Positions 3,674 through 28,653 are shown, numbered from the stretch's first letter. The stretch is 64,000 nt of DNA from Lingula anatina (GCA_051362555.1 JBPQGU010000016.1:1984001-2048000); one strand, 5' to 3'. Notes: a model not told the origin generated them from the sequence alone. Program-made: numbers and translations.

Positions 3674-4380
3674 TTATTATTATTATTATTATTAATTGTG
3701 TGTGTATGAATGTGTGTGTGTGCTCTCGGACGTGCGTTGAAATGTGTTTACACTTTGTCAGTAACAAGAACCTGGTTAGCCTCATTCCCTGATGAAGATG
3801 TTATGTAAGACATCGAAATACTGGAAGTAAACTATTTCAGTATTAAGCTGTTGACTGAAGAAAAATGTTACTTTATTTTAAAGTTTGCACATACCAACAA
3901 CTTTCCCATCAAAGAATATCTTATAAACGATTCAATGAAGAGAAGATGGTGATGGCATCCATGTACCACTGAGATGAACACTACAAAAACAGTTAACAAA
4001 AATTTCAGCACATAGATGGCGCCTTTGTAGGTCTAATGCACGAATTTGAGTCTACTTCCACACTTAAGAACGTTCGGCCATATCTGTTTCGCAGGAGGGT
4101 TGAGTTGTGGCCATGACTTCTAGAGACTAAATCCCCAGAACACGGGTTCTTCTTAGAGGGACAGGGCCTTGTCAGTTAGTGCCGCGGTCAAGAAGGCTGG
4201 CCAAGAAGATTCGTCCAGCAGTGGACTGTGAGACACATGCTCAACCCCTCGACCCCCTGCCTCGAAACCGGCTTTCACACCGATAAAGGACATTTAGGCA
4301 TGTACCTGGCTCTGTAGAGGACAGGTCTTTATAATAATTAAGCAACAGTGAGTAGAAAACGAAAAGTCCAAGAAACCGTA

Positions 4381-5016
4381 ATGAGCAGGAGAATGGCGTA
4401 CCAAAAGCTGGAAGAAACCAGCGTTGCCTGCCCCAGTCTGCAGGACTATAACGTGTTCATAGTGGGGTACAAGGGACACGGCAAGTCAGCCACTATGATG
4501 AACATTATTCGGGACGTAGATTATAAGGGAGCCACGGGGTACAAAATAGAGGAGAGAACGCACGAGAAATGTACATTCTATGATACGCCAGGTTTCGGCT
4601 CACTGGACACAAGGGACTCGCACGTGCTGCGCGTGATAAACGCAAAAGCCAACGCGGTCGGTGAAGTGCACGCTTTGTTATTCGTACTGCGTTATTCGCG
4701 CATCACAAGTTCCGTGATTTCTTTAATACGCCAACTTAAGGACGCATTCGGGCCAGACTACTCCAAACGCACCATCATAGTCTTTACTTTCACTAACCAT
4801 GAAGCCGACTTAAAGTTAGCCGACTATTTGAATGACAGTCCGCCGGAATTTCAGAAATTTGTCGGCTTGTGTGAGGGCAGAGTGATCATGTTGGAAAATT
4901 CTGACTTCCAGACTGGGGAAACTGCTGCCTCCCAAATTGTGGACATGATAACGAACAGGATGCATTCAGAGCCATTGATAGTCCCATGGTCTAGAGTAAG
5001 TAAACTTATTGACTAA
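4381..5016 (+). CDS. AIG1/GIMAP-family GTPase A (211 aa, apparently a single coding exon)
   Basis: ATG at 4381; G1 GYKGHGKS, G3 DTPG, conserved box VHALLFVLRYSRIT, G4-like TFTN, and CEGRVIMLEN. TTTATAA lies ~50 bp upstream. Stops 6 codons earlier than copy 2 (TAA vs GCA). Confidence 0.85.
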   Translation: MSRRMAYQKLEETSVACPSLQDYNVFIVGYKGHGKSATMMNIIRDVDYKGATGYKIEERTHEKCTFYDTPGFGSLDTRDSHVLRVINAKANAVGEVHALLFVLRYSRITSSVISLIRQLKDAFGPDYSKRTIIVFTFTNHEADLKLADYLNDSPPEFQKFVGLCEGRVIMLENSDFQTGETAASQIVDMITNRMHSEPLIVPWSRVSKLID

Positions 5017-5180
5017 TGTCAGCTGTTTAGATAAATAGGAAAGTAAGAAATTACGGAATTAATGTTCAGAAAATAATAATGAATGAATAAATGAAAAATA
5101 AATATGCGAATGAATGCACACTAGTGTGTATCGTGTGTGTGTGCGAGAGAGAGAGAGTGTGTGTGTGTGTGTGTGTGTGA

Positions 5181-5257
<77 letters not shown>

Positions 5258-5478
5258 CGTGGGGGGGGGGCCGGAGAGAATGAGTGAGAGAGGATGGGAG
5301 AGAATGAGAGAGAGAATGAATGAAAGAAAAAAGTACGGTCTGGGCCAGACAACGTTTGAATCGAAGAATGAATGAATGAATGAATAAGCTTACAAAGAAT
5401 TACGATTTATTTATTTCTTTCTCTGTCTCATTCCAGTTGAACGCGTGTTTGTGGGCGTGTCTGGACCTCGTGGTGTTC

Positions 5479-5660
5479 GTGATTTCCAGTTCATGGCAGG
5501 GTCTGTGTCACCTTTACAGGGTCGTAGTTGATTGCTGCGGTGATGTGATTTCCAGTTCATGGCGGGGCCTGTGTCACCTTTACAGGGTCGTAGTTGATTG
5601 CTGCGGTGATGTGATTTCCAGTTCATGGCGGGGCCTGTGTCACCTTTACAGGGTCGTAGT
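5479..5660. repeat. 66-bp minisatellite, ~2.8 copies
   Basis: GATTTCCAGTTCATGGC starts at 5481, 5547 and 5613; the paralogous unit-2 site (~28900-28950) has a single unit. Confidence 0.9.
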
Positions 5661-6529
5661 AGGACGGAGGTGATGGGAAAAATTGGACTGTCTTAACGTT
5701 TTGTATAAAAAATACGTCCTTTAAGAATGACTTTTTTATTAATTTAGTATAAAAAGTAAGAAAGGGGACTGATGTGGGGTGCAGGTTTTCATTTACAAAT
5801 AAATAAATAAATGAATTAATTAATGGCTTGTGCAAGTTGCATTTCCATTTGTATGAATATTGTGTATGTTTCTTGAGAACAGAAAGTAGATAATAATTTT
5901 TCTAGGAACGGTTGTTGTTTATTCAAACTGGATTTTTTCTGTTGGTATTTTAAGTTCCGTTTTATCCAACTAAAAGTACAGGTGTTTCACATTAATAGGC
6001 ATGTGATCGTAATGCGGTCAACCACTTTTTTAAATCTCACATGTACACGTGTAGACTCTAAAAGCAGAAAAATTGTGACATTCAATTGTTGACGTTCACA
6101 TTACATTGTAGCTGCATTTTTAAAGAGGTTAAATGGTGCATGTGGTGAAATATACATGAATAAATGAAATGGAATGAAAATGTCGAATATCGTATTAGTT
6201 TATGAAGCAATTTTGTCTATACCTATTTATCTTTTTTATTTCTTTTTTAATATATCTTGTGTTTTATTTAATTTACCTATTCTTGTTAGCAATTAATTAA
6301 TTTAATGTATCTAAGCGTGTTTGACTTTTTTTACTTTTCTCTGCGTACGCATCGCGTTTTAAACATTTGTTCACATCAGACTAGAAACCGAAATTTAAAA
6401 CAAATATTTGTATCCATCATTTTCACATGCAAAATTGCGGCCCACCTCTTGCTACAAATAGCGCACCTTTACACCCCCATTTTCCGCCCGCTTCTAGCTT
6501 GCAGAGAAACAAATTCCCTGTTTTGAAAA

Positions 6530-7100
6530 ATAATGCATATTAATTTCCTGCTGTTTATATCTCGACTAAATTGTGTGGAAAATTCAATACCATGGCCAGT
6601 TGTTTCGATTATACGAACTATTTTCAAGGTGGGATTTTCTGTATCAACTTTTAGTTTCGATGCATCTTCCTGGAAAACCCGCGTTCCACGTAAAACCTCA
6701 GAAGTGAGTCAGAATGCGGTCAATCACGTTCTGCACCGCTCACTAACAAGTTTAGGCCCAGGAAGTAGAGCATTTCATCAACGGGCTACATTTTTATGCT
6801 CCTCACATATAGAGAAATAATTTCCCCTAACGGCCGATTCGAAAGAAAATGCATATTAATTTCCTGGACTTTCCTGTGGTTATTTCTTGATTAGTTTGTA
6901 CAGAAAGTTCAGACTCGGTTGTTCTTATGAAAAGAGCTTTCTTCAAGGCGGGGTTTTCAGTGTCAACTTTTAGTTTCGATTCATCTTCCTGAAACCCCAC
7001 GTTCCACGTAAAGGGTCAGAATGGAGTCAGAATGCTGTTTATTCTGAACCTCTCATCAACAGGTTTAGGCTCGGGAAGTAGGGCACTTCATCATCGGGTT
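6530..7100. repeat. Local ~320-bp diverged tandem duplication containing a motif cluster (see findings)
   Basis: ATGCATATTAATTTCCTG at ~6533 and ~6849; CAACTTTTAGTTTCGAT at ~6645 and ~6964; GTTCCACGTAAA is also repeated. Confidence 0.8.
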
Positions 7101-7911
7101 ACACGGTACATTGCATTGCAGACACAAATGGGTGTGCCCATAAACTAGCTTAGATTGAAATTTCAATATTACAAAAGAAGCGTAAAGTAAATGTCATTGT
7201 AAAAATCGTTAAAACGCATTAAACGCTGTGTTTTTATTTCTTGATGATCTTTAATGAGCAAAGTCAAGATTATAGAAAGCTGGAGCTATGAACGTGTGTT
7301 TTGACAGCGCCCCTTGCAGAGTAAGGCCAGGAGGACCTGAAGTTCATGAGATAAAGATGTAGGTGTCTCGCCTACATACCATAAATTTTATAGTTATATG
7401 TGCAATGAGGACATAATTTGGTGCCCTTAAAAGGTCAATTAACGATAAATGGATTGAAGTGCCTCGCCTCTTATCGTGGACCGAGGTAGGCACGGCAGTA
7501 GGATGGGGAAAGTGCAAGGTGGGCTGGTTGCAGGAAGGGCTTTTCAGCCAACAAATAACCTTTATCGGGTGCAAGTCTAGGGAAAGGGGAGATAAACTAA
7601 ATAAAAAAACGTGAAAGGGGGGTGGGGGTGCTCGGTCGGAAAACAAATCATTTCACCTTTGTTTGGTGATTTTTCATCAATGATGACGAAGTTTTTAATT
7701 ATACAAGCCATTTTATATTTTTATGTTCGTATCATGTTGATCATAAGTGTCTCTTCAAGTTGTATGGTTATCCAATATAGCTGTTTCTTCGGAAACATTC
7801 AGACACAAGCTGGAAGTTTTACATTGAGTGTGTACACGGCTTCGTAGTCAGAAGTCGAAAATTGCCCTCATTCACTAAATTATAGCTTCTGCAATGTCAT
7901 ATCTACCTCTC

Positions 7912-8085
7912 GGGGCCGTAGCAATAGTCCGAAGGTTCAATAGTCCGAAGGTTCATTGGTCCGAATATTCACTATAGAACCTTCAGACCAATGAACCCTT
8001 GAACAAAAAATTGATGAAAATGTTACCACTTTTCGGACCAATGAACCTTCGGACCAATGAACCTTCGGACTATCGAGACGCCCCC
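7912..8085. mobile_element. Palindromic MITE with 9-bp TSD (Mutator/MULE-like)
   Basis: TSD CTACCTCTC at 7903-7911 and 8086-8094; termini GGGGCCGTAGCAATAGTCCGAAGG / CCTTCGGACTATCGAGACGCCCCC; 15-bp subterminal repeats; absent from the homologous segment at ~50720. Confidence 0.85.
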
Positions 8086-9335
8086 CTACCTCTCATTATA
8101 AGGTTATTTTCGGGGTGTATCAAGAACAGTCAAGGAATCTTGTATTGTGGTGAATTAAACATTGTGCTTCCTATAATCTTAAATTTTCCTGTTAAGGATA
8201 ATCAAAAGCGATATTTATCATGTAATATGTTTTTACTTTATTTATGAAGATATTCACGTAATATTTCTGCCGTAATACTGACATTTCAATCTACCTGGTA
8301 ATGTTTTATTCTTGAAAGTCTAATTTGACCAGGGCCAATATACAATTGACTGAATTTTAATCTGGCCTGCGACATATTAATTTTATCTGTGACCTAGACA
8401 AGCAAGACGGCTGGCGGTTGACCTTGCGCCCTGAGTGATTTGATTACAGTCAGCTGGTTGAGAACGGAACGTCAATATAGAAGAGATTATTTTTAACTCG
8501 ATTACAATGCATAAGCAATGTAGAGTAAATCAATTAAACCGCAAGTCTTGAAAATTACCGAAATGAACTCTGCAAAGCCTGCTGGAGAAGCACGTGATGT
8601 GATGTTTTCCTCTTTCTTTTTACATGCTTTTATCGTTAATATAACCCCTTCCACTCTAAACTTATACACGAAAACTTTCCATCTCTTCCAAGAACTGTTG
8701 ATGTCATTAGTTCTAAATATAACCTTCCCGCTTGGACACGAACGTACTTGAGATATACAGAATTGGGATATTTAACGTTGTTACAGTGCGCTGTATCCTG
8801 GTATTATTTCTTAAATAAAAATATTTTTCTTAACAGTAAGCAGTATTAAAAAACGTCATGTGGGCTTTCTTTTCTCTCCTTCTCTGTCTTTCTCTACTCT
8901 TCTGTTTTACAAGACCTAGTTTCACTTTGAATGGATGCATGAAAACAATTTAATATCAACATGGAAATATGATCAGCGCCGTTGCATTTTTATCAGGCAC
9001 GTTCACTGATACGTTGAAACAATGATGTTTTGACTCACTCCCAGCGCCCGAAGCCCAAACAAAATGCGCCTGGCATTTCAATCTTATTTCAAACTAGCCG
9101 AGAGAGGTCTCTTTATCATATGTCCCTACTATATGGCAGTAACTATTTCACTACTTCCATTTTGATATCAATTATCTTTTATTTAAATTGCAAAAACTCA
9201 GTTTTTGGAATACGTCTTCCTGATGAATATGTTGTTCATGACATTGCACATCTGTAATGTATTCTTTTCAGTTTGGTATTTTAAAAATCCCTGATTCTTA
9301 AGTCGATTTTAACTCAAACAAAAGGGGTTAAGTCT

Positions 9336-9505
9336 TTAAGTAAACGACAATTCTCTCGCTAATTCTTCAGTGGAATAGTTGCTGTCCTTGTCGCCATCTA
9401 TCCCTTCAAAACTAAAAAATCTAAGCAGAGACGACCATCTACTCTGAAAAAAAAAAACAATATTCAAGGTGAAAGGCTCAATCATCATCATCATCATAAT
9501 AATAA

Positions 9506-9536
<31 letters not shown>

Positions 9537-9720
9537 AATTCTGTAACGTCAGTGTCGAGTATACTGACCTTTCACGAGAAAAACATTTTTCAAAGGATTA
9601 TAAGGGAAATTAAAGCAATAAATAAAAGAGAAAACTGACGTGAAATGTAAGTGGACAATTTATAATCCATTCCGAACAGAACTGATATAATACATATTGC
9701 AAAAAAAAAAAAAAAAAAAA

Positions 9721-9789
<69 letters not shown>

Positions 9790-12119
9790 CGTTTCAAAAT
9801 TTAAAGCTTTATGTAAGAATATGGATTCTAATTTCTTGAAAACGTGTATCACTAGCTGGAATGTCTGAATTGTGTGTCATTTTAGTAATTATTAAAATGA
9901 AGCCTACCTCTAATTGGTATACCTTGGTGCACTCTACAATATTTTTAATATAGTCTTGTATGAGTTTAATTTTTGTGTTATTATCGTCATTCTTTGGTTT
10001 ATTGTTTATGACGACAACTCTGTTGTCAGCTTCTTTAACCTTGTCTCTGAAAGTCTCGGGAAATCTCTCAATGAAGTCTTGAGTCAACAGCCCGGGATAT
10101 ATGTCACCATGCGTAAATACAAAGACTGTGCTTTTTAGAAAATCCTCAAATTGAGACTCCAACAGGTTTAAGGTTACGATTTCATAATCTGTGATTCTCT
10201 TACTGCAGTTCATAACGTAAATAAACGCATTCACGTGATCAATACCGTTGGCCTTTCTTTTTATTGTTGTCATAACTTTCTCGTCTGAATATGACAATGA
10301 ACCAAACCCGGGCGTGTCTACTATCCACCATTCCCCCTCGTTCTCAGGGTACCATCGATATGTCTTCTGACAGCAGTCCTTCTTTTCAGACAAATGGTTG
10401 TTACGGGTGAGAGTGCTCACGAGGGCCGTTTTGCCTTGGTTCACACGGCCCACAACCATGACCACTGTTGGCCCTGAAAATGCACAATTACCTCTTAGTC
10501 TCGCTTAATCAGATTGTTATTGAAATGAGACGATTTCATTCGGACTCTGTACAAAGAAAGCAACATTCCTTCTGCAGATCAGTCCGGGAGCCCAGGCCTA
10601 GGACAAAGCAAGAGGCGAATGTATTCACGTCTTATCTGACGGTAAACCAAAAGTCATCAATTTCATTTATCTTTTAAACTTACAATATGAAACAACTTCA
10701 ACGGAATTGTAAAGGATATATTAAGGAGAAACTGTCGGTCACTCTAAGAGTCCAAACTTTCAACAAGGAAAAGGCAGATATTTATATTAAAATAAGTACA
10801 TGTAGAGGAGCTGCCACTTATTTAAATATTCAATTCATAATCTATGCTTTCTCTATATACGAACACCTTATTCTGAATTTTCCTTTGTAAGGATTATTTT
10901 GATATAAATATGTAACCCCCACCCCCGAAAAAATTAACACCGATCAAAACAACCTCCTTTGTTTACCAGAGGATTAAGACTTTATTTATTTAGTACAGTC
11001 TGTTCATATCATAAATAATAATAATAATTATTATCATTATTATTATTAAGTCTATGAAGTTCAGTTTAATTTCAATGTTAAAACTTTTACATATTAAAAA
11101 ATTAAAACAATATACAAAACCGCAGTTGATGCATTCTATTAAAGGGGACATTTTAAATTACACTGATCGTTTTTTACATTAAGGCACGTACACTAACATA
11201 TTTAAAGAAAGCTCTGAGTAATTAAAAAAAATCATTCTTTGACACTATTTGGCATAAACTGAGTGACAGCATGTTCCATTCCACTGGAGCCGACACTTAA
11301 AAAGCTTAGATGTCATACATTGTTAGTCTGTTCATTATCAGGAGGGTCGGAATTAATGTTCACTATATACATGTAGTATCAGTGACAACAGACACGGTCT
11401 AGACATAGCACTTATGTAATCTTCTGTAAACAAATTCGGCTCCAAAGTGTCCATAAATAATATTTACTTATCTTATCTAAATACAGATGGGGTTTATTGT
11501 CCGCTTTTACAACGTGAAAATATATGATAAAACCAAAAATCATTCCCAAGGAGACTGGTGTGTGTTTGTGTTTATGTGTGCGTGTGCGTGTGCGTGTGTG
11601 TGTGTGTTTATGTGTGCGTTTATGTGGGTGCGTTTGTGTGTGCGTGTGTTTAGGTATGTGTGTGTGCGTTTATGTGTGCGTTTATGTACGTGTGTGTGCG
11701 TTTGTTTATGAGTGTGTTTATGTGTGTTTGTGCATTTTTGTGAGCGTTTGTATGTGTGTGTGCGCTCGTGCGTTCATACGTGCGTGTGTGACACACGGTC
11801 GATGGTTTGGCCCTTTGTCCATATAGCTAAATATTTTGTCAACACTACACAAGAGACATACATGTAGCAACCTAGGTCAACGTGTAATAAATCTGGCTAT
11901 ACTCATCTTTTCCAACTTGATCCACAGAAAAACCTATTTGTCTTTCACTTATATAATTGAAATCTACAGTTCCTTGCTAGATATATTACTTTTTTTTTCT
12001 TTTCTTTTTTCCGGGGGTATTTTTTTAGTAGTAGGATTGTAGTAGGATTGTTTGGCAATTCATGCTCAACAAACCGGTGTCCTTTGTTACAGTATAAGAC
12101 CCTTTTCCTTTTGTGAACG

Positions 12120-12162
<43 letters not shown>

Positions 12163-13345
12163 GATCTCTCTTAATTTTAATAAAACGGAATCTTGGCGGC
12201 ATTGAGTTGACATTCTTCACGTCAAGCTCTTCCCCCTTTTTCTATTGAGTGCCATTGTTCTGGGTGCGTGACAAGCTTAAAGGGATAATAACTCTTCGTT
12301 TTAGCCAAAAAAATTATTTTTCCTGGAGTAAACAACAATTTTTCCATACTTACCAATGGTTAATGAATCCATTTTTACATTCAAAGTTAGTCCCTGTTTT
12401 TTTTTTTTTTTTTTTTTCTAAAAAGTTTGTCTTTTTGTTATAATCTCCTAAGAGATTATAACAGAATACAGTCATCAATGGAGGTCACGTGGTCTAAAGA
12501 CAAACTCAGATATCAGAATAATAGCTATAACTGGCGTTTTATAATTTTTTTTTTTTTGGTAAAACAGAATATATTATATGTCTATGAGTTGTTCACAATG
12601 TTTTTTAATTGTGAAATGTAGATCTCATACGAAGAGTTGTTATCCCTTTAAGTTTCTCCACGTTTTAATTTTATTTTTGTCTGCCTTTACATTCAGATAA
12701 GATACCAGTAAACACACCAAAAACAATACATAGAGCACGAGGTTTAGCCACTCTTTTAGGCCCACTAACCAAACAGTAGTTCGCTTAGCCTACCGCAAGG
12801 TTACTTATGCTATTAGGTCTGCTGTAAGAAGCAGCTACATCAGTGCACGGTGGGATCAGGATATGGGGGATATCGCTTGGGGGGTCAAAGATAAAAACGA
12901 ATGCCTCACAAAGTGAAACAGTAAACCACACAATTACATGCATACTATACTATTTATGACACAGGGTTAGGAAATGCACTTGGTTTTGTCTAAGTTCACT
13001 CAAAATAAATTTTAGGGTCATTATTTTATTAAGTGGAGGAGGAAGTGGACAAGTCCATGGGAAGCGAGTAAAAGTCGATGGTATACCTTGCTTTTGTTTA
13101 CAGCTTTGCATGCAGGACAATAACCGCAGGCAAGGGCTCATATCACCGTGTGGTTTAAACACTTGAGAACCTGTTTTTCTTCAGTTGTACCGGTAACACC
13201 TATCATTCATGAAAACCGAGACAAGAGTTCACCATGTAGGCCTACATATTACGTTCCTGTAAATGTGGGGCATTATAGAGATGGAAACCAGGAGAAACAA
13301 GCAGAGGGGAAGATGTTTCTTGTATCACTCACCTTTGGCGGTCAT
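9336..13345 (-). CDS. AIG1/GIMAP-family GTPase B; exons 13333-13345, 9908-10473, 9336-9443 (~228 aa)
   Basis: ATGACCGCCAAAG|gtgagt (phase 1) joins ttttcag|GG; G1 [23 protein letters not shown]|gtaggc donor and tttttcag|AGT acceptor. The last exon keeps frame across a 9-nt indel in copy 2. Exon 1 assignment is inferred. Confidence 0.8.
12281..12647. mobile_element. TTAA-flanked MITE with AGGG...CCCT ends (Kolobok-like) in GIMAP-B intron 1
   Basis: TTAA|AGGGATAATAACTCTTCGT ... ACGAAGAGTTGTTATCCCT|TTAA; empty site in the relic at ~56641 (AAGCTCATGTTTCTCC); family fragments at ~54497-54682 and, inverted, ~54890-55000. Confidence 0.8.
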
Positions 13346-14435
13346 TCCACTTTCCTTTTATGTATTAACCTCCTGTGATTAACCAAGTGAAGCTTAACAA
13401 AATGGCTATCTGGGAAGTGCCTATATCCAACTACAAAACTTCCTGTACTGCCAATGCGCATGTGCAAACCTGCGCTGATATTTTTGTCCTTCTTATAAAG
13501 GTTAACCCTTTGAATCCCCCCCCCCCCCCATATAGCGTTTTTATCTTATGTTTGAAAAACATAACATATGGTCTTAATAAAGATTAGTTACAGATCGGAA
13601 TGATTTTCTCCTGTTGCACCGCACGTTAATTGATCAATAAACTACATTGATTGCCATGTTTTGCATTTTTGATTTAATAATTAATGTAAAATTTTATTAA
13701 ATTATTAATTTATTTCTATTTATGAATGAATATTTAATTTTCCTTATTTCTTTATTATTTCTTTATATATTTTTTATTTTGCGTTCTTCCGAATAAAATT
13801 ACGAATTTATCCAAATAGTTATGTGTGAGTCTTTGAAAAAGCATGCAGATCCCACTACTTTCTATCTTCTAATTCCGAACTATCTTTTTATAAATCCAGC
13901 AAGTTATCAATTGAACCAGTTTGCAACCGTTTAGAAGTGCATTTATTGTCAACAAATTTATCAGTATATACATATATTCCATGCATTAAAATCAATAACA
14001 CAATGCTGTTTTTTTTTTTTTTTTTTTTTTCTAGATTATCATGCATTCAACTTATGAAGCCCTGGCTTACATATATTTCAATGTAGAGACGACAACGAAG
14101 CTTGAAAAACTGAACTAGTTATGAAGATGTCGTAGGTTCTCCAAATATTTAAAAGCCAAGCAAATCAGACCTTTAAACCGTCTCCACTTAAACCCACAGT
14201 GTCTTGCATATTGAGTAAGATCCGGGAGCAGTCAAAGTCGTTGAAAAATGCCCATTAAAAAGGATCATGAACGCCATTTAGGAACGGCGTATTAAACTAC
14301 CTGACACATGACAACTACGGAACCACAGCGGTTATTTTAATGTCGCTGTTTAGAATGTTCCCTGATTGCTGGCGTGAAAGTAAATACTGCTATTCTGCAT
14401 GGATCAGTTCAGTTGCTTTTGACCAGTATAAGTAT

Positions 14436-16031
14436 TTAACTATTGGTGACAGCAACGCCAACCGCGACGGCAACAGCGATGACAACAGCACCAACGATAG
14501 CAACAGTGACAGCAATGCACACAGCACTTTTTCCACAGCAAATCACCTGGAATAGAAATAATTACAATAACTAAAAAAAAAAAAAACGCATGTGTGGAAT
14601 GTAATGAAATCAAGTTATGTTAACAGGAACAAAAAATCCCTTCCTCATTTATAACAAAACATACACGACATGAGTACACACACTGGACAATTGAAGTGTC
14701 ACCCCCTGAATCAGAGTAATCAAAGTTATTTACCCGAAGAGGTGGAATATAAGTAATGTCAGAATATCGATACAGTTGAATTGTTCAGTCAGAACCGTTT
14801 GTTTTGTGAAATTTGATGTTAATAAAATAATACTAGGAGCATATCATTCCACAGTCATTTATCTCCCACAAAGTATTGGTTCAGTAGGGGTGACACTTCT
14901 ATTGTCCAGTGTGTGTAGAATAGATGTGCATTTAGTCCTGTTATATTAATCTTTTTTTCGGGAATTATCGGATACGGTTGTTTGACGTTATCACCGCCTT
15001 ATCCAATAATAAGTTTTGCTTAAAATCATGAACTGAATATATATGACAAGACATGTTCAATATTTTTTGGCTCATATCACCATGGCCCCCTTTAAATTAG
15101 GCTAATAACGTATGCAATTTTCAAATGTATTTGTCTCTCTTTACGTACGCTAAAACAACTAGTCGAAAGTGATGAGGTAATGTTCAATATACATAACAAA
15201 TAAAGGAGGCGAGCATTACCCTTCCAGCGCCAGGAACTTTATACGGCACCGTTTCAACAGATTTTATCAGCTCTATTAACTCTTCTTGTTTCTCTTCTCG
15301 GTCTTCCCAGTCACTGTTCTCTACACACCATATTCGTTCACCGCAATTTTTATAAAGACTCTGAAATGTCTCTGGTGAATTGGCTACAAATTCTCCGATG
15401 GAATTGTTTTTCTGTTTTATGGCATCAGCAAATGTGAGGACAATGATGCTTTTTTGAAGAAAATTGTCTCCAAAAATTTTGCAGAACTGATCTACTGCTT
15501 TTATTTGAGTGTTTTTAATTCGGTCCGTTTTAAACACAATCAATATTGCATCCACGTGCTGCAGACACCTGGCTTCATTGTATATTCTGTCCAATATCTT
15601 GTGGTCAGTTGTTGTCAGGGATCCTAAACCAGGTGTGTCCACAACATGGACAGTCGACGAGCTCGGCTCCTTGAGCCTGAAAGTCTTGCGTGTAATTTTG
15701 CCATCTTTTCCTTTATAATTAGGGTCCCCGGATAGTTTCATTACAGTTGCAGATTTCCCTTGCCCCAGATAGCCAACAACAATGACGTTGTAGGTTTTGG
15801 TGGTCGCCCTGGGAAAAACATTTCGCAATGAATTATGAAAAACTGCAGTTAAAAAACATTCAGAATAAAAACAAACAAAATCTAAATCTAATTTGAAAGA
15901 AGAGAACTGATTTTATTAATGGAAAGGGTTCGTCCGGTTTAGAATAGGATTTTTCGTTTTTTCTTTCTATCTCTTACACTATTTAGTGCTGTGTCTTCGT
16001 TCCAATGTATTGTTATTATTATTGTTATAAA

Positions 16032-16106
<75 letters not shown>

Positions 16107-16442
16107 GGCAAAGTATAAAATATCAAAATGTATAACATACAATCTAAATTGATTATATGCACAAAGAAAGATTCTAAAACATACCAACTTAAACTTCCAT
16201 AATGTTTATTAGACAATTGCCAAGGTACAGATTATAGACTCAATAATGACTAAAGCCTGTTCTTGATAATCTCCATGTGTGTGAAAGCGAGCACAGTTAA
16301 CATTAACCCTTTATAACTCTGACAGTTGAACTGAAACTACTGATCCGTTTCTTTGGCCTGAAACTGACTCCACGCACAACTCACTGTTATCTACCTTCAT
16401 TACATTAGTGACATATCATTACACGTGAATGTATACTTACAT
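14436..16442 (-). CDS. AIG1/GIMAP-family GTPase C with C-terminal transmembrane anchor; exons 16441-16442 (AT of split ATG), 15220-15808, 14436-14546 (233 aa)
   Basis: AT|gtaagt...ccag|G forms the ATG; G1 GYLGQGKS, DTPG, DRIK, TFAD, CGERIWCVEN. AGG|gtaatg donor; attccag|GTG exon encodes VICCGKSAVCIAVTVAIVGAVVIAVAVAVGVAVTNS*. All splice sites are conserved in copy 2. Confidence 0.87.
14677..14915. mobile_element. Tc1/mariner-type MITE with TA TSD in GIMAP-C intron 2 (unit 1 only)
   Basis: TA|CACACACTGGACAATTGAAGTGTCACCCC ... GGGGTGACACTTCTATTGTCCAGTGTGTG|TA; absent at ~36648 in unit 2. Confidence 0.88.
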
Positions 16443-17365
16443 TGCTGTTCCTATTTGGAGAGAATGGAGGATCTAGCGAAGTGTTACTACTGGTGCTTTC
16501 TGCTTTGACAGGGAAAAGTTGGAGATTGGCTATAAATGCCAAACTGCGCATGCCCTGGTAATTCCCGGGGCCTTCACAAAGTTCCAAGATCGACAAATTC
16601 AAGGGGAAATTGTTAACATATATCAGTTCTTTTTTATTATTTTCCCGCTATTAGCCCTTCCCTTTCATCTTCCTGTCATTATAGTGTATAGTTGCCGTGT
16701 TCAAATTGTAACTCGTATATGTATAAAACACGATAAATCATTTACTTTCAAACTCACCCAAAACAGCAACACATAATTTATAACCTGGACACTTTATTGA
16801 TGGTATTTGCGATTCTACAACTTAAAGAAAGTGGGAAACGGGCACTTTGCCACATTGCTCACATCAGTGGGAAAACATAATTTTCTTTATCCTCTTTTGT
16901 TTTAGCCAGAAATAAGTTATTTAGATGTTATGAGACGCTCCCTGAGCTCTTGACCTCCTAGGCGTTATTGATTTGCATATCAGCGGCACGAGGTAACATC
17001 CGCCCAGCCAGCCTCAACTCACGTCTTTCAGATACTCGCACAGCGTACAGCAACTGATGTTGATAGGCAGGAAGTCGTCGTTACCAAACACATACTCTGC
17101 TCATGAAGTATAGTCAACTAACAATATCAACAAGGTAAAGGGTTGATATTCTGCACTGAAATATTTACTTTAAAATCAACAGGGTAGTGCGTTATCAAAT
17201 TACTTTAAAAGAGAGGACAGGGTAGCGTTTTAATCTGGTTAACTTTGGCGAAAGTAAAACTTTCAAAACTGGCACGCTGCTAGCAGAAAAGACTTCACAC
17301 ACACTTGAACATAATCTAGACAGTATAGTTTACTGGGGCACAAACAAGCAAAGATAGACTGCACC
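16443..17365. promoter_or_regulatory. Divergent (head-to-head) 5' region shared by GIMAP-C and the MACPF-GIMAP-Hint gene
   Basis: Start codons point away from each other 0.92 kb apart; contains TATAAA (16531), TGCGCATG (16545), kB-like GGTAATTCCC (16557) and IRF-like GAAAGTAAAAC (17250). Highly conserved in unit 2. Confidence 0.55.
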
Positions 17366-19044
17366 ATGAATTCAAGCGACCCACACTGGATTAAATGCCA
17401 CGCTGACTTGCAAATAGGAGATGGATACAACTTTGATACCATGGAAAAAACACAAGCCATAATTGAGGGCATAGAAGAGGATAGTTTGGATTTCACTAAA
17501 GATCGGGATATAAAAATTCGCCAATTTACCGGGCACTTAACAGAGCGCGATACTCAGACCAGCAGCAGTGAGGGTTTTGTGAGGCTCAAGGCAAAAGCTT
17601 TCGATTTGACTATTCCTGGGGTAAACATGGGGTTGAAGGCTGAGGCAGGAGCAAGTGCTAGCTGGAAAGGAAGTGGGGAAAATACAACGGAGGGTGATGT
17701 CACCACACTGCGCCTGTCTATTCGTATGCAAACTGTGAGTTTTTATTTCTTTTTAAGAAACCAGATCAGGTCAAACATTTCTCTGAAAAGATTTTAGAAG
17801 ATTTAATCAAATTACTTCAGATTTAATCAATTAATTTGCAATGAGATAAAAAAAGAAACAAATGAATAAATTCATGCATGGATCAATGATTAAGGAAATA
17901 ATTGACTAGATATAAATGAAAAAATAAAAGCAAACGTTCAAGAATATAATTATAATATAGTTATTCAGTTTTTGTTTGTTGACATAACTATCTGAATAAA
18001 AAATGCAAAAAAAAAAAAAAATAGAAATAGTAATGTTCAATTGTAAATTGTAAAATGTTTACGAACATCAGTGTTGTGTATCACAGGTGTGTTTTACAGT
18101 TACCCTTTCAATCCATGCCTTTACGCTTATTCCGTGTGTAATTTGTACTGGCGAGAATGATTTTTTTTGCGACATATCGGGGGAAATAATAATAATAATA
18201 ATAATATTTTTGTCTCTCAGGGAATTAAGCGCCTGAACGACCGAAGACGCGGAAGTGTGAGACGAAAACCTGGGGTTCATCCTACACATTATGTGTCATC
18301 TTTAGCCTACGGTGGCTATCTGACCATCGACATAACAGCGCGCGTGAACAGTCGCAATGCGAAGGAGAACTTTGAACGGGACATGGGAGCAAACGCAGAG
18401 TTCAAATTTAAAGAATATGGCGCCGATGTAAGTGCTAACAGTAAACTGAATAACATCGAAGATTACTTGAGGAATACTCAGGAATGCACAGTGAACGTTG
18501 ACTCGAGTGTTTCAGAAATGCAGTACGACGTCCGCGAAACAAAATCAAGTGATCTCAGCAATTTGCAGAAGCTGATAAATCGCTTCGTAGAAAAAGTCGA
18601 GGAACAAAATGGCGGCAAAGGCAAGCCGATGCTGGCCAAAATTGCTCCTTTATCCGAACTTGATAATTCTGCAGAGCCATATGAATTCGAAAACAGACTG
18701 GGGAACCAGATTAAAGATCTGGAAGACAGGTATGACGACATTTGTTCAGCTTTGGGGTTTCTACGCACCTTCTTCCAAGATCACCAAACTCAGGTCCAAG
18801 ACCTTCCCCATGATATAATTAAGCTTGAGAAGGATCTTGAAAGTTTACGAGACACATTCACAGATAATATACAGGGACTCACTCACAGAAAGGCTGACCA
18901 TGCGAAAAATAAAGAAATCGTTCGACATTTAGAGGCAGCGTACACGGAATTCAGCCCTACTGCTGTTGGTCTAAGGAGATGCATCGGTAGAGTGAGGCAA
19001 ATGACCCAGAAATATATCAAGGTGAATAACTTCGTGCTCTCTGA

Positions 19045-19079
<35 letters not shown>

Positions 19080-20664
19080 CACGTCGGTTAAATGAGGCGA
19101 ATAGCTTAACACTATAGCAAGGTCAACACTCTAGTCCTTTATTTTTCAGATATTGTGCAAATGTCCTAGAATTATTGAGGACATCCCTTCATAACAATGT
19201 GTTATAAGCTTTTGAATTTAAACAGATTGGTTATATTATGGGCATCTATTACAGGTAACTGATACATATGAACAACTACCAGAAGCTTATGCTAAGGGGA
19301 AGCACACCAACATAGTCGCCGTCGGGAAGATGGGGACCGGAAAGAGCTCCACCTGTAATATGATGGTCGAAAAAGAAGGGGTTTTCCGAGCAGCTTTTTC
19401 CTCGGACGCTGTAACGAAAGACCTGTCATCGCACTGTGCTAATGTGGGTGGCCGTGATTTGCGACTCATTGATACTCCCGGCCTCTTAGAGGCTGTGTCG
19501 ACTAAGGCACAGTTAGATATTCTGCAGAAGCTGGCGAATTGTATTAGTTTGCTCGAAGGCGAGGACGGTATCGACGTGTTCTTGTTTGTCATTCGCTGCG
19601 ACGAAATGCCATCTCAAGAGGAATTGGGCGCCGTGATTCAGCTAGGTACGTTGTTTTCGGAAGTCATTTTTGAATATATGGTTGTTGTAGCTACTCACAA
19701 GGACGAACTTGAGAACAACGGAAAATCAACAGAAAGTTTCAGAAGCAATCTTCCCGACAAAATGAAGACGATCCTTCAGAAGGCCGGTGACAGGATGGTG
19801 TTCATCAACAGCGTCACTAAAGACGGGAGAGAGCGTAGAGGCTACATAAAATCCATCATACGTCACGTTGATGACATAGCAAAAGCTCATCAGGGTGAGA
19901 AATTCTCCCATAATGCAATCAACGTAGCACGCGACAAGAGACAAGTGCTGAAAGCAAAAAACCCTAAATTGAGTGATGTTGCTATACAAAACAAGTTGGA
20001 AAAAGAAGTCGAGCAATACATAACATCACAGTACTACTGTTTCGACGGCTCTTCCACTGTGCGACTTAGCAATGGGTCAGTCACACCAATGGCCAAACTA
20101 TCTCCCGGTGACAAGGTGCTTTGTGTTAGGGACGATGGCTCGGTCGGATTCGAGGAAATATTCTGCTTCGGCCATGCGGATTCCAACTGCCAGACTATAT
20201 ATGTCCACTTGGAGACCTCAACTGGGCAACGCCTTATCCTTTCTGAAGGTCATTATATCCAGGCTGTCTCCAAAACTTCAGCGTTCCCATTTTTCCTGAA
20301 AGCCGCCCGTGATATCCGAGTTGGAGATGCGGTGTTCGTTTATCACCCTGCGACTAATGCCATGTTTATGGATGAAATTGTGGCAACAGGCAGTAAGAAA
20401 GTCACCGGAGCCTTTTGTCCCCACACCATGAACGGCACCATCATCATCAATGATATTTTGGCGTCGTGTTACACCGACGCCGTAGAGCCCCTAGTGGCGA
20501 GAAAATTGCTAATGCCAGCCTGGTTCCTGTACGAAATGCTTCCACTGCGTGTGTCTGAGCCAGTGCTAAAATATGGCGTCTCAAATGCCTGTAAACTTTT
20601 AAGCGTGACGAAGAAATATTTTTCACGTGTTTACTACACCTACGCCTGCGAAAACCACTATTAA
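17366..20664 (+). CDS. MACPF/CDC(stonustoxin-like)-helical-AIG1/GIMAP GTPase-Hint(Hog) fusion protein; exons 17366-17734, 18221-19021, 19255-20664 (859 aa)
   Basis: Phase-0 introns ACT|gtgagt..ctctcag|GGA and AAG|gtgaat..ttacag|GTA join three ORFs in frame. THY-x6-GG MACPF signature (18284-18316), N-terminal IGDGYNF, NGGKGKPM..IAPLS. GKMGTGKSS/DTPG/THKD. Hint from CFDGSSTV (Cys codon 20038) to GTIIINDILASCY (20472). Confidence 0.88.
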
Positions 20665-23009
20665 TAACTCAACTTCTCTTGAAAGAGGTGGAACTCAACT
20701 GATAATTAAGATTGATAAAATGTCATCTCTATGTACATTTTCGTAACCTGCGACTAGGGTTCAACTGTTGTACGATTAAGACTATGCTGATAAAGTTTAT
20801 TTTAGCGTATATCTATTTTATATCTGTTCATTGCGTTCTATTTGGACATTGCTATTGGCACCATTTTTTTATTTGATTATGTGGTAGTGTTGTTATTACA
20901 CAGTATATGCCTATTAGTAGAGATTTTGGAAAAGAAAATAGCACAAAATAGCCCCATTCTGTTTCCTCCTCCCCCATGCACACATCAGTGTTTGCTTAAT
21001 TTTCTTGATTCCTTCTTGTTATGGTGTGCTTCTGAAATTATCTTTTAGAATTTGTATTTTTGTACATAGGTATTTTATCTTTGAAAGTGGCGGACATGTT
21101 TTATCCTTTCTATTTGAGGCAACATTAACATTAGAAATCCCACTGTATGCCAAACCGTGTTGATTAGCGTCAGACAAATACAGTTCCTAAATCAAGATAT
21201 AAGTCTTTAAGAAATTTCATAATATTTCATAATACAATCATAGTTATTATGACATTATACTTTTTCAATAGACGGGTGAAAATCTTTTTGGTAGAACGTT
21301 TTTCTTATCCAGCTGAATGGGTTGCACGACTGATGTTATGGGATGGAGATGTGATTGATATATTACAGGAGTTAATGTTTAGTTTATTTAGATTTCTATC
21401 TTTCTGTCATATGTATTAAGAGATGAAGGACATTTACAGGTTGATAAGATTTCTTTTTTTTTCTACTCCCATCTATGTCATTGACGGTATAATAGTTAAT
21501 TATTAATATTATCATTATAATTATTATGTCTGAACACGTAAACGTCAAACAATATAAATAATTTAATGTTTTAACAAATGATGCGACTCATTTTTGTAAT
21601 TAAGTCCAAGAAAATTTTGACACCACAATATATGGCACAACTCAAAGGTATTGGGTTAAGAGATTTTTGGACGATTTCTAATTTTTCTGGAGAATATAGC
21701 AATTTTTCCTACCCAAGAATCATTTATAATAATAATAATAATGATGATAATAATTTCTTAAATCCTCACTACACTACCGCCTCAGTGCTGTTTACAGATA
21801 AAATTATCAGGATTACAACTAATTATATAGATAATAAAAGCTAAGGTAAAAAAAATTAAAATAATTAAAGCTGGTTAAAATAGTAATGGTCTGAACAATA
21901 AAACTTTTTTCTGATAAAATGAGAAAATATTAATTAAAATACTGTACAAATAAGAATGTTTTTAATTTTTTGTTAAAAAACCTCAACACTATCTATAGTC
22001 CGAATGTGTGAGGGCAGTTGATTCCATAAAATTGGTGCTGAAATTGAAAATGCCCTGTGGCCATAGGTTTTGGTTGTTTTTTTATTATCATTTTTGATAA
22101 AAAACAAGGAATGGAGGTGGGTCTGGTAGACCTGGTGAGGCTGGGTGTATTTGGATGTAGCATCGAATTAAAATATGAGTGGCATTCACCTCTGGTGAAT
22201 TTAAAAACAAACAACAGTAATTTAAAAATAATAGTTAATAATTTAATAATTGCCTTGTCCAACTATTCAGCCCCCTTTTTGTAAAAAAAAAAATAAATAA
22301 ACGGTATTTTCGTTCTTGATGTCCAAGATTGGAGAAATCTTAACTTTTCAGGATATTTAGCTGTATATTTAACTTTTTTTTAATTTCGAAAGCGCACAGA
22401 ACTCATAAACTTAATAATTGAAAAAAGCAAAATTGTAAAGTTTGAATAATAAATAAATTTTAATTGGAGATGAAAAGCGCAAAGAGATTTCATTAAAGCT
22501 CACATCATCTCTAAACTTGCAGCACCACAACTTCCCTCAAGCAGTATATTTGCCTAAAAGGCGAAGTATCGGACTGTTATAAACCTTTAATACACGTTTT
22601 ATAACACATTCTTGTTATTCTATAAAGCTAGGTAAACAAACGGAACAATATGACATATGACTGAACATTTTCCATTTTTTTTTATTCCTCAGTTCTGATA
22701 AATTATGAAGATTAATTTCTTTTGGAAGATTAAGGGAATATCACAAGAAAGGATAGTTAAATTTTGAAAGCTGCCAAAGCTTGCTCAACTGAGTGATATT
22801 GGTCTCATGATAATTTATCAGTCCCAGAGATTTCCCTGAAGTTTCGTCTGACGCCAACCTTCAAAATTCAGTCTAGTTTATGATCACTTGAGACTTCCAT
22901 GACCTCATTTCAATGGAGTCAAACTACCGAAATGATCAATTTACAGTTTACAATGGCTTTTGGTGCACATGGGCTTTTGTTTGTCTATGGCATTATCCAT
23001 TACACATGA

Positions 23010-24622
23010 TCACTTTTGATTGCTGACGTCAACTTTGACCCACGTGCCAACTTTCGAGTCCACATCTTCGAAGTCCACAACGAAGAAATCATCAAAGTCG
23101 TTTTCTTCGTTTCCAGACTGTCCATTAGTGAAATATTCAAGCACGGAGATGTACTGGTAGATGTCCCACAACGATGCTTCCTCCTTTAACAAAAATAAAT
23201 ATAGTAGATGTAAAGCCTGTAGTCATATGAATAATAATAATAGTAACGTTTTCTATTTATTTTAGATTATATCTAAAATCTTTATAAAAACCTTTATAAC
23301 ATGTACAGAAAAATTAAATAATAACCAGAATATACTGATAAAATGAATATCAAATTTGCCTTAAAAATAATTTTACCAGTGCCCTAGAAACACTTGGGGA
23401 GAGGAAAAAATAATGCCCAGCCCATCTTTCTCGTATAAAAAGCATTTGAAAGAATTGTAGCAACCATTACCTTCAGAATGCACGGTTTTTCTTGTTCACG
23501 CATAATCTCTCAGACCTTTCCTCGTAGCTCCTCCTAAAAACACAGTATGCTATTTGGTTCAGCAGTGCCGACTATACAAACACGATTTCCGGCCAGTTCT
23601 GCTTTCTCCTTAAAAGTCTTTGGTAGCGAATCCATGAATTTTTGCTTTTGTTCACTGTTGAGAGCTGTTCTACCATCATGGATAAACACAAAGATGTCCC
23701 TCTTCAAAAATGTCCCGAAGAATTTATCTTCCAAGAGGTCTATAGCTTCTATTTCTGTCGATCTGACTCTTAAGTTATATCTTAACACGTATAAAAATGC
23801 GTCAACTTGCTGTACGCCTTCTCGTTGACGACGGATGGTCTCCACTATGTGCTCTTTGGTAAAATCTAAATCCCCAATTCCAGGGGTATCTATAAGTGTT
23901 AATTTCCATGTGTCATGCGCAGAGCTTTTTATGTCCCCGTGAAGTACGCAGCATTCCGTTTGGTCGGGGGAATCTGATTGGGCAAGAAGAGCATGAGCCA
24001 GAGACGTTCTCCCGTGCCCCTTTCGACCGACAAGCATCACGTTTAAGTGTTCAATATGATCTGAAATATAATTCAAACACGAGTTCATTTATTATAAATG
24101 GAAATTATCAAATACAAGCCGAAATATTTTCGTACCGTTAGCTTACGGCCAACCTGGGCGAAAGCCTTTATCAGACTGATGTATGTTTATGTTCACACTC
24201 ACTGACCGCTAGGTGGTATAGTGAACATTTTGGCTCATCTACGAATTAATTTAAGTTACAGCTTTGGGATGATCTACAAAATGTACCTTGGGCATTGGTT
24301 TGGAAACTGGGAAAATGGCAGCTGGTTCCAAGAAAAAAATATTTGTTATATGGCCATTAAACATTATGTTTGTGAAACATCGATCTTATGAGTATACGAT
24401 AAATATATTTCGTCTACTGGGTCAAATTAAAGAGAAATTCACCTCGTTAGTCAACTTAATGCCTTTTTACCTGGTCTTACCCTTGGCAAGACAAGGGAAA
24501 CACATTAACGAGAAGGGGGAGAGGGAAAGGGGGTGTCAAAATAAGGAGTCGGCGATTTACAGATAGCGAGAAGATGGTGGGGAGAAATTTTGAAAAATGA
24601 AAAACATTAACCCCCTCTATAA

Positions 24623-24659
<37 letters not shown>

Positions 24660-25064
24660 ATTTGTGTACACAATCACATGATTCGGTTAAATAGCATTAA
24701 GCGTCGTTGAATATATACATGCCATTAGCTGAATGCAATATAAGCACTGCCTAGAACAAATATTCAGGTAACTCGAACAAATTGCCTTGCCCAAACCTGT
24801 CCTAGTAGATCATAGTTCACAATATATACATGTATACATAATGTAAACATTACACTATCACAAATCGTCCTACTGCACATACGCTTGGTCTGTCTTCTAT
24901 TGTGATCATTATGTTATATATTATAATGCGTCGCACTGTACGAAATGATGTATGTGATGCACAAATTAAAAACATAATGCAATTATTTAAAACAAATTTA
25001 AGTGATGCTAGTATGTTAACAAAGGAATGCACTGCGTCTTACCATCAGCTGTAGGTTCCGCCAT
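23010..25064 (-). pseudogene. AIG1/GIMAP-family GTPase D, unit-1 copy with premature stop; exons 25043-25064, 23471-24060, 23010-23183
   Basis: Same exon structure as the intact copy at 44227-45936, but TTG>TAG at 23534-23536 removes the last helix and the acidic tail. Confidence 0.8.
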
Positions 25065-28494: not shown

Positions 28495-28592
28495 ATAGAA
28501 AAATAAGACATAACGGAATTAATGTTCAGAAAATAATAATGAATGAATAAATGAAAAAATATGCGAATGAATGAATGCATGCTATTGTGATA

Positions 28593-28653
<61 letters not shown>

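What the first reader, a model, noticed from the sequence alone, without database searches (positions are those of the whole stretch)
4381..25064. Five-gene GIMAP cassette that looks like a division-of-labour immune module
Seen: four mutually divergent small GIMAPs surround the fusion gene (A+, B-, C-, fusion+, D-) and were duplicated with it as a block. Each has a different tail: none (A), amphipathic/acidic (B), transmembrane (C), LIR-like (D). Inference: membrane anchor, autophagy adaptor, regulators and pore effector could assemble through G-domain heterodimers, analogous to IRG/GBP coats on pathogen vacuoles.
Basis: partly seen in the sequence, partly recalled or inferred. Interest (0 to 1): 0.8.

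Follow-up and report, generated by a model that had tools for sequence, protein, structure and literature searches.

The report
Brachiopod GTPase cluster around pore-forming fusion
In a brachiopod (Lingula) genome, four small immunity-type GTPase genes flank a gene that joins a stonefish-toxin-like domain to a GTPase and a Hedgehog-type domain; the small proteins likely sit on membranes and likely switch the predicted pore-former on or off, which would be a GTPase-controlled immune pore not found in my literature searches.

Summary
The five genes, their orientations and the ~22-kb tandem duplication are real, and all five are transcribed. Near-identical RefSeq proteins point to Lingula anatina.

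Corrections:
- A is not tailless: a spliced exon adds a hydrophobic, Cys-rich tail.
- D's LIR motif is at chance level (35% of shuffles).
- Neither block is intact: D1 has two stops before its tail and A2 is frameshifted.
- Copy number differs from the RefSeq set, and I found no A–D-type protein outside Lingula.

The fusion gene F is stonustoxin-type MACPF + helical + GIMAP + Hedgehog Hint; abalone and mussel proteins share this architecture. F lacks the conserved-box Arg (R/K in 64 of 67 other G domains), which A–D keep. D has a degenerate P-loop, G4 and G5, so it is likely a pseudo-GTPase. That fits trans-regulation of F by its neighbours, as in human GIMAP2/6/7, but binding is untested.

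Tandem GIMAP clusters, varied tails, heterodimers and GIMAP–Hint fusions are known; the scan noted a diatom GIMAP–Hint fusion before. I did not find the MACPF–GIMAP–Hint fusion in print. The vacuole-coat analogy has no direct support.

Verdict: new variant of a known kind, interest 0.55.

The parts
3888..25476 (.). Block 1 of the tandem duplication (A1 B1 C1 F1 intact, D1 broken)
   Evidence: self-BLAST; gene models
27387..46352 (.). Block 2 of the tandem duplication (A2 broken; B2 C2 F2 D2 intact)
4381..5673 (+). A1, small GIMAP, 283 aa; exons 4381-4995 and 5437-5673 (hydrophobic Cys-rich tail, 22-aa unit x3)
   Evidence: AIG1; splice reads table 5c; RefSeq P0005 with tail
9336..13345 (-). 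B1, small GIMAP, 228 aa; exons 13345-13333, 10473-9908, 9443-9336 (amphipathic then acidic tail)
   Evidence: AIG1; intron 1 in all 4 RNA runs; intron 2 inferred from GT/AG and an open frame in both copies
14436..16442 (-). C1, small GIMAP, 233 aa; start codon split by intron 1; exons 16442-16441, 15808-15220, 14546-14436 (transmembrane tail); head-to-head with F, start codons about 0.9 kb apart
   Evidence: both introns in 3 of 4 RNA runs; hydropathy
17366..20664 (+). F1, 859 aa fusion: stonustoxin-type MACPF + helical domain (about aa 1-395), AIG1 G domain without the conserved-box Arg (about aa 405-645), Hedgehog-type Hint and C-terminal helices; exons 17366-17734, 18221-19021, 19255-20664
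23010..25064 (-). D1, degenerate GIMAP with two in-frame stops (codons 183 and 191) ahead of the acidic tail; exons 25064-25043, 24060-23471, 23183-23010
   Evidence: introns seen in RNA; every RNA read covering the two sites lacks the stops
25261..25272 (+). IRF-element-like 12-mer about 200 bp upstream of D's start codon, kept in block 2 (46133-46144); weak lead
   Evidence: 2 matches (one duplicated site) against 0.26 expected; consensus recalled
27848..28965 (+). A2, frameshifted by a 7-nt deletion near codon 60; 34-aa tail exon 28858-28965
31080..35070 (-). B2, intact, 230 aa
36417..38164 (-). C2, intact, 233 aa
39093..42422 (+). F2, intact, 860 aa, 98% identical to F1
44227..45936 (-). 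D2, intact, 261 aa; P-loop Lys is Arg, G4 and G5 degenerate; 99% identical to RefSeq P0004

Best explanation
This is a transcribed, tandemly duplicated Lingula GIMAP cluster in which four small GTPases with exon-encoded tails flank a MACPF-helical-GIMAP-Hint fusion gene, and it likely works as a membrane-bound GTP switch in which at least one small GIMAP likely pairs with the fusion's arginine-less G domain to control a predicted pore-former. SHOWN: gene models, tails, domain homologies, residue states, transcription, duplication and reciprocal loss. INFERRED STEPS: (1) F likely cleaves itself at the Hint Cys1 and may attach a lipid, giving a cytosolic MACPF-helical-G fragment. (2) C (transmembrane tail) and A (hydrophobic Cys-rich tail), perhaps B, likely sit on an organelle membrane and recruit F through G-G interfaces. 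(3) A, B or C would supply the catalytic Arg in trans, as GIMAP7 does for GIMAP2, and so time F's oligomerisation. (4) D, likely unable to bind GTP, would inhibit, like GIMAP6. (5) The MACPF part would then perforate that membrane or an engulfed microbe. It is a loose, copy-variable network rather than a fixed five-part machine.
For: The conserved-box column is R in 50 and K in 14 of 67 non-window G domains. It is R in A, B, C and D, but M in F and T in its paralogue P0002, while the four molluscan fusion relatives keep R or K. The same column is the Arg of GIMAP7, GIMAP4 and GIMAP1. D has Arg for the P-loop Lys (K in 66 of 67), Ile for the G4 Thr and Thr for the G5 Asn. Human precedent: GIMAP7 activates silent GIMAP2; GIMAP6 binds no GTP, inhibits GIMAP7 through the G interface and coats bacteria (PMC9111091 passages); 'catalytic arginine finger' (PMC8066113 legend). 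The fusion profile matches stonustoxin alpha and beta at E 2e-9 and 6e-9, and the Atlas model of aa 1-395 matches SNTX MACPF clusters at TM 0.71-0.72 over 352-362 residues. Hint keeps Cys1 (24 of 26), block-B His (26 of 26) and the C143 equivalent (24 of 26), with His at D46 (26 of 26). It matches Hedgehog D46H (6TYY) at TM 0.94, and D46H still accepts sterols (PMC8529194 passage). dN/dS between blocks is 0.13-0.35 for all five genes. Exon-corrected depth per Gb is 10-28 for all five in X17 and X18, and 0-3.6 for all in X11. C and F are head-to-head, and A and F share a RefSeq scaffold.
Against: F's G domain is only 15-22% identical to A-D, and A-D form their own long-branched clade (99/99). 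Keeping the Arg does not prove activity: GIMAP2 and GIMAP5 do not hydrolyse GTP alone. That this column is the catalytic finger (GIMAP7 R103) is recalled; the primary papers were not held. A-D have a shortened switch-I region and A has Asn for the G4 Asp, so they may be poor enzymes. A:F is 19 in X14 against 1.1-1.8 in X17 and X18, and B is seen without F in X11; four runs from three studies are few, reads at 88% identity or more include paralogues, and neighbouring genes are often co-expressed anyway. No A-D-type protein was found outside Lingula among 174 hits (120 listed), although the fusion architecture is wider. Another A paralogue, P0124, has His at the Arg position. Membrane-inserting hairpins could not be assessed: pLDDT is under 50 for aa 26-111. 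No strict kappa-B site lies directly upstream of any gene's start.
Confidence: 0.42

Rival explanations
1. Ordinary birth-and-death GIMAP array: the genes lie together because of duplication history and shared regulation. A-D may pair among themselves, while F acts alone as a GTP-locked scaffold or pore-former that needs no hydrolysis.
For: Tandem AIG arrays in mixed orientations, with TM or Hint additions, are common in Biomphalaria (50 AIG footprints in arrays; PMC7053062 passages) and in coral. GIMAPs are often dispensable in lancelets. Reciprocal pseudogenes, extra A paralogues beside a D2-like gene on one RefSeq scaffold and a second F paralogue on another, F distant from A-D, variable ratios.
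Against: F and its paralogue lack the Arg while its four neighbours keep it, and the molluscan fusions, for which I found no A-D-type proteins, keep R or K. Purifying selection on all five genes. Near-equal levels in two runs.
Confidence: 0.4
2. One reading: a fixed five-part coat (anchor, LIR autophagy adaptor, regulators, pore) that assembles on pathogen vacuoles like IRG/GBP.
For: Tail diversity and a pore-type domain are real. Human GIMAP6 binds an ATG8 protein and coats bacteria, and D resembles it in being degenerate.
Against: The LIR is at chance level, and GIMAP6's own LIR-like motif is dispensable for GABARAPL2 binding (PMC3804274 passages). The unit is not fixed. There are no infection data. 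These are AIG1-family GTPases, not IRG or GBP.
Confidence: 0.12
3. On the duplication only (compatible with the other readings): the two blocks are divergent alleles of one five-gene locus placed in tandem by the assembly.
For: 27 of 36 selected variant letters in reads match block 2. No read or contig listed at D's two stop sites carries the stops. F is almost identical between blocks, introns included (99.6%).
Against: dS is 0.10-0.23 for A-D and flanks differ by 3-10%, against a reported genome heterozygosity of 1.6% (PMC4595640 passage). In DNA run X1, contig depths of about 56 and 93 at one D site and about 158 on F look like more than two copies (the tool warns this is no copy number). 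RefSeq also has D next to A-like genes, as at the block junction here.
Confidence: 0.15

Closest known systems
Human GIMAP cluster (GIMAP1/2/5 anchored, GIMAP7 activator, GIMAP6 inactive inhibitor bound to GABARAPL2)
   Same: Clustered AIG1 GTPases with different C-terminal anchors; activity set by homo- and hetero-dimerisation; an inactive member (PMC9111091, PMC8201404 passages). F's G domain matches GIMAP7 (3ZJC) at Z 27.8, rmsd 1.9 over 232 residues.
   Different: Independent expansion: A-D form their own clade. No human GIMAP in the passages read carries a pore or Hint domain. A-D lack the long helical extension. Interactions here are untested.
Stonustoxin-type MACPF/CDC proteins (4WVM; PF24674 + PF21109)
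   Same: MACPF plus helical (FAT-like) domain over about 395 aa (domain layout from PMC8704401 passages).
   Different: THX and PRYSPRY, the targeting part, are replaced by GIMAP + Hint. Below Pfam cut-offs. No signal peptide by inspection. Pore activity is untested.
GIMAP-Hint fusions (fungal GmGIN1; Biomphalaria AIG1-Hint; lancelet CARD-AIG1-Hint)
   Same: AIG1 domain followed by a Hog/Hint domain, no signal peptide (PMC2362128, PMC7053062 passages; PMC12373286 section 10). 34 of 273 proteins in hand have both domains.
   Different: The N-terminal partner is a MACPF domain rather than a death-fold domain or nothing. This is seen in Lingula (2 proteins), Potamilus streckersoni (1), Haliotis cracherodii (2 genes) and H. 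rufescens (1).
Invertebrate tandem AIG/GIMAP arrays (Biomphalaria, Acropora, lancelets)
   Same: Tandem, mixed orientation, one exon per G domain, copy-number turnover.
   Different: Members are very divergent (23-33%) rather than recent near-copies, and they surround a pore-type fusion.
IRG/GBP coats (recalled; not tested)
   Same: Idea of active and regulatory GTPases cooperating on a membrane.
   Different: Different GTPase families; no localisation evidence here.

Membership tests
GIMAP/AIG1 GTPases (A, B, C, F) | AIG1 domain above Pfam cut-off | tested here: met
   78, 71, 101 and 133 bits against 27
GIMAP/AIG1 GTPases (A, B, C, F) | G1 Lys-Ser/Thr, G3 DTPG, G4 Thr..Asp, G5 Asn | tested here: met
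   A has Asn at the G4 Asp. F's G5 Asn lies one column off in that alignment and in register.
GIMAP/AIG1 GTPases (A-D) | Conserved-box Arg | tested here: met
   R in A, B, C and D
Self-activating GIMAP (F) | Conserved-box Arg | tested here: not met
   M in F, T in P0002; R or K in 64 of 67 others
Active GIMAP (D) | Intact nucleotide-binding motifs | tested here: not met
   P-loop K is R, G4 T is I, G5 N is T; still AIG1 at 54 bits
GIMAP heterodimer network | G-domain hetero-dimerisation that changes GTP hydrolysis | not tested
Stonustoxin-type MACPF/CDC | MACPF + helical domain homology | tested here: met
   below Pfam gathering scores
Stonustoxin-type MACPF/CDC | Two membrane-inserting hairpin regions | tested here: inconclusive
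   model pLDDT under 50 for aa 26-111 and 180-193
Stonustoxin proper | THX and PRYSPRY domains | tested here: not met
   AIG1 and Hint follow instead
Stonustoxin-type MACPF/CDC | Pore formation | not testable with these tools
   needs a liposome or cell assay
Hedgehog-type Hog domain | Hint fold with Cys1, block-B His, C143 | tested here: met
   TM 0.94-0.95; Z 25.9; block B reads SxxH rather than TxxH
Hedgehog-type Hog domain | D46 general base and sterol transfer | tested here: inconclusive
   His instead of Asp in 26 of 26; D46H is reported active; the adduct is unknown
LIR/AIM autophagy adaptor (D) | Acid-preceded W/F/Y-x-x-L/I/V above chance, and ATG8 binding | tested here: inconclusive
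   present, but in 35% of shuffles too; binding not tested
Conserved five-gene cassette | Linkage of the same five genes in related genomes | tested here: inconclusive
   A and F share a RefSeq scaffold with two index numbers between them; D lies on another scaffold with two A paralogues; B and C were not retrieved; no A-D-type protein found outside Lingula; no other brachiopod genome held
IRG/GBP vacuole coat | IRG or GBP family GTPase recruited to pathogen vacuoles | tested here: not met
   the family is AIG1; recruitment is not testable here

The most novel reading that the evidence does not exclude
A GTPase-gated, self-lipidating intracellular pore: a stonustoxin-type MACPF protein that cuts and anchors itself with a Hedgehog-type domain and, in Lingula, has handed its catalytic arginine to neighbouring membrane-anchored GIMAPs, with a pseudo-GTPase brake. 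This would give invertebrate GIMAPs a direct killing effector, in an architecture shared by brachiopods, mussels and abalone.
Probability: 0.25. Interest if true: 0.85.

Novelty: new variant of a known kind. Interest (0 to 1): 0.55.

Why it matters
What GIMAPs do downstream of GTP binding is an open question, above all in invertebrates, where they are among the most expanded and immune-responsive families. A GIMAP fused to a pore-forming domain names a candidate output. The complementary loss of the catalytic Arg (F) and of nucleotide-binding motifs (D) gives a small, cheap mixing experiment. If it holds, the human GIMAP logic of anchor, activator and inactive inhibitor evolved twice. If it fails, the cassette is an ordinary variable immune array, and only the fusion remains of note.

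Tried and rejected
- No whole genome is held for this window, so synteny could only be read from RefSeq scaffold lengths and index numbers.
- Complex prediction of F's G domain with C was not available: no verdict.
- Single-sequence folding of F failed (pLDDT 34.5). The 26-row model (pLDDT 67.9) resolved the G and Hint domains, but both fold searches listed only those domains, so the MACPF part was barely tested there. phmmer of F exon 2 alone against PDB gave nothing meaningful.
- No RNA holder was listed in the run index; raw RNA runs of the same species label were laid instead.
- A search with the seven-sequence G-domain alignment did not return B or C orthologues; word sampling or missing annotation may explain it.
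- Promoter motifs: strict kappa-B gave 3 hits, two inside F's coding sequence and one at 25520, about 460 bp upstream of D. Loose IRF-type hits number 22 in 64 kb. Not used as evidence.
- 'A is tailless' is rejected. 'D's LIR is significant' is rejected.
- One origin for the G domains of the Lingula and molluscan fusions was rejected by an AU test (p 0.018, LG+G4, 35 of 75 rows). F is long-branched, so domain swap, convergence and artefact all remain open. F grouping with A-D was not rejected (p 0.24).
- Two primary GIMAP structure papers were not held. PMC13121700 and PMC8857920 had no relevant passages for my terms.
Full report
ORGANISM AND LAYOUT. The window is intron-containing animal DNA. 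Its proteins match RefSeq Lingula anatina models closely: D2 is 99% identical to P0004, A1 94-97% to P0005, and F differs from the 859-aa P0001 at 2 of its first 450 residues. I take the source to be L. anatina or a close relative (inference). Five AIG1 domains lie in 4381-25064 in the order A+ B- C- F+ D-, all above Pfam's cut-off. The stretch 3888-25476 recurs at 27387-46352. tblastn with nine cluster proteins finds no GIMAP sequence outside these two blocks.

GENE MODELS. I built models from splice signals kept in both copies and tested them with four RNA runs. Reads confirm B intron 1 (2, 4, 22 and 13 reads in X11, X14, X17, X18), C intron 1 (0, 2, 11, 10), C intron 2 (0, 1, 12, 22), D intron 2 (0, 2, 9, 12) and D intron 1 (16 reads in X17). 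C's start codon is split by its first intron. B intron 2 and F's exact introns are not among the listed joints (68 were not shown). F's model is backed by P0001 and by reads of diverged paralogues across both junctions (5 and 2 reads). The stranded run X14 puts each gene on the expected strand. In each small gene a phase-0 intron follows the G domain, so the tail is a separate exon.

A has such an intron too (4996-5436; 16 reads in X17 and 5 in X18, with a few variant letters after the joint). Its tail is hydrophobic and Cys-rich: 34 aa in A2, two units in RefSeq P0005 and three units (78 aa) in A1. An unspliced 211-aa form is not excluded. D1 has stops at codons 183 and 191, ahead of its tail, and A2 has a 7-nt deletion near codon 60. 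Each block therefore lacks one gene, and a different one. RNA reads over D's two sites all carry sense codons: 7 of 7, 16 of 16 and 24 of 24 at 23535, and 8 of 8, 12 of 12 and 21 of 21 at 23512 (X14, X17, X18; X11 has no cover). D's acid-preceded LIR core arises in 35% of 10,000 shuffles of that tail, and in human GIMAP6 a similar motif is not what binds GABARAPL2 (PMC3804274, passages).

DUPLICATION. Between blocks, dS is 0.12-0.23 (A, in two parts), 0.16 (B), 0.10 (C), 0.16 (D) but 0.026 (F); dN/dS is 0.13-0.35. Identity climbs from about 92% at the block edges to 99.6% in F's first intron, which suggests recent homogenisation of F (inference). These values exceed the 1.6% heterozygosity reported for Lingula (PMC4595640, passage), so a true duplication is more likely than a haplotig, though not proven. 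Of 36 variant rows that I picked (leaving out rows in high-copy repeats and one run's paralogue rows), 27 match block 2. In RefSeq, A and F share a 232,901-bp scaffold with two index numbers between them; a D2-like gene shares an 81,194-bp scaffold with two further A paralogues; a second F (P0002, 77%) lies on a third scaffold. B and C were not retrieved. The set is therefore copy-variable, as GIMAPs are in lancelets (PMC12373286, section 10).

THE FUSION. F's first 395 aa are homologous to stonustoxin's MACPF and helical domains: profile E 2e-9 and 6e-9 against 4WVM; Atlas model TM 0.71-0.72. Pfam gives no hit in F and only sub-threshold MACPF hits in two molluscan relatives. The G domain matches GIMAP7 (Z 27.8) and the C-terminal part matches Hedgehog Hint (Z 25.9; TM 0.94 to the D46H variant). 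Cys1, the block-B His and the C143 equivalent are kept, and D46 is His in 26 of 26 aligned proteins; that substitution still allows sterol transfer in Hedgehog (PMC8529194, passage). Among 273 proteins in hand, 5 matched all three parts: two from Lingula, one from Potamilus streckersoni and two from Haliotis cracherodii; a H. rufescens protein was added. An Atlas cluster with AIG1 or MMR_HSR1 domains, mostly from rotifers among the members with known taxa, also matches the N-terminal fold (row 10), so MACPF-GTPase fusions may be wider still.

CATALYTIC COMPLEMENT. In a 75-row G-domain alignment the conserved-box column is R or K in 64 of 67 outside sequences and R in A-D, but M in F and T in P0002. 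It aligns with the Arg of GIMAP7, GIMAP4 and GIMAP1; its role as the trans-acting finger is recalled and supported only second-hand (PMC8066113, figure legends). D has Arg for the P-loop Lys and degenerate G4 and G5. In humans, GIMAP7 activates GIMAP2, and GIMAP6 binds no GTP, inhibits GIMAP7 and coats bacteria (PMC9111091, passages; PMC8201404, passages). This is the best reason to think the neighbours act on F. Against it: F is 15-22% identical to A-D; A-D form a separate clade, ((B,D),(A,C)), with support 99/99 (35 of the 75 rows; the quick 75-row tree, agrees but pulls in one long-branch outsider); and their switch-I region is shortened.

EXPRESSION. Depth per Gb, corrected for exon share, for A/B/C/F/D: X11 0.5/3.6/0/0/1.3; X14 11.4/2.4/2.3/0.6/3.5; X17 28/14/11/15/10.5; X18 21.5/11/19/19/13. 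All five rise together, but ratios to F vary by 6- to 17-fold. X17 and X18 are from one study, tissues and treatments are unknown to me, and paralogue reads are included. This is weak support for co-regulation and says nothing on immune induction.

WHAT IS KNOWN. Tandem GIMAP arrays are described in coral (PMC3723955, passages) and snail, including mixed orientations, TM tails and a Hint fusion (PMC7053062, passages). AIG1-Hog fusions are known from a fungus (PMC2362128, passage) and from lancelets. I did not find a MACPF-GIMAP-Hint protein or a Lingula GIMAP cluster in print. The searches were (listings and abstract starts; passages of the papers named above and of PMC8704401, PMC3417536, PMC8857920 and PMC13121700). 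The library lacks most subscription journals; I recall a 2018 survey of Lingula immune genes that did not appear, and I read no supplements, where domain tables could list this fusion.

VERDICT. The division-of-labour idea is plausible and now has a residue-level handle, but its general form is known from mammals and its specific claims (fixed five parts, LIR adaptor, vacuole coat) are unsupported. Best reading: a loose GIMAP switch network around a pore-type effector (0.42), close to an ordinary array with an independent fusion (0.40). New variant of a known kind; interest 0.55, carried mostly by the fusion.

Noticed in passing
window 12277-12651 (B intron 1): High-copy element with inverted ends (MITE-like). 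In runs X17 and X18 a copy is joined at 21400 in F's 3' region, so this insertion is polymorphic.
   Followed up: no
window 46351-48025: 1.7-kb palindrome (arms about 715 bp, 85% complementary) exactly at the right edge of block 2; possibly a transposon at the breakpoint.
   Followed up: no
window 48086-51611: Four collinear pieces resemble 2143-2265, 3314-3418, 7393-7568 and 8125-8949 at 74-86%: perhaps a relic third block with A deleted, or dispersed repeats. No GIMAP coding sequence remains.
   Followed up: partly
window 59776-63519: Broken LINE with endonuclease and reverse-transcriptase ORFs on the minus strand.
   Followed up: partly
window 5479-5660: A 66-nt coding tandem repeat sets A's tail length: one unit in A2, two in RefSeq P0005, three in A1.
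   Followed up: partly
window 16441-16442 / 15808: C's ATG is formed only by splicing; intron supported by RNA reads.
   Followed up: yes
window 17735-18253, 19022-19295, 23139-23186: RNA reads show further diverged F and D paralogues not present in the window, one with a P0002-type linker.
   Followed up: partly
P0001 against window F1: Mosaic identity: 2 differences in the first 450 aa but 68-82% identity over aa 551-650, suggesting recombination among F paralogues.
   Followed up: partly
P0003, P0161 and 32 other proteins in hand: GIMAP-Hint fusions with DED, CARD or unannotated N-termini from snails, mussel, lancelet, Lingula and unnamed records: a wider family than the papers I read describe.
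   Followed up: partly
PDB 9UJ0 (Aeg-L): Weak match (E 0.0015) to the fusion profile's first 198 positions; no listed paper held the name.
   Followed up: partly
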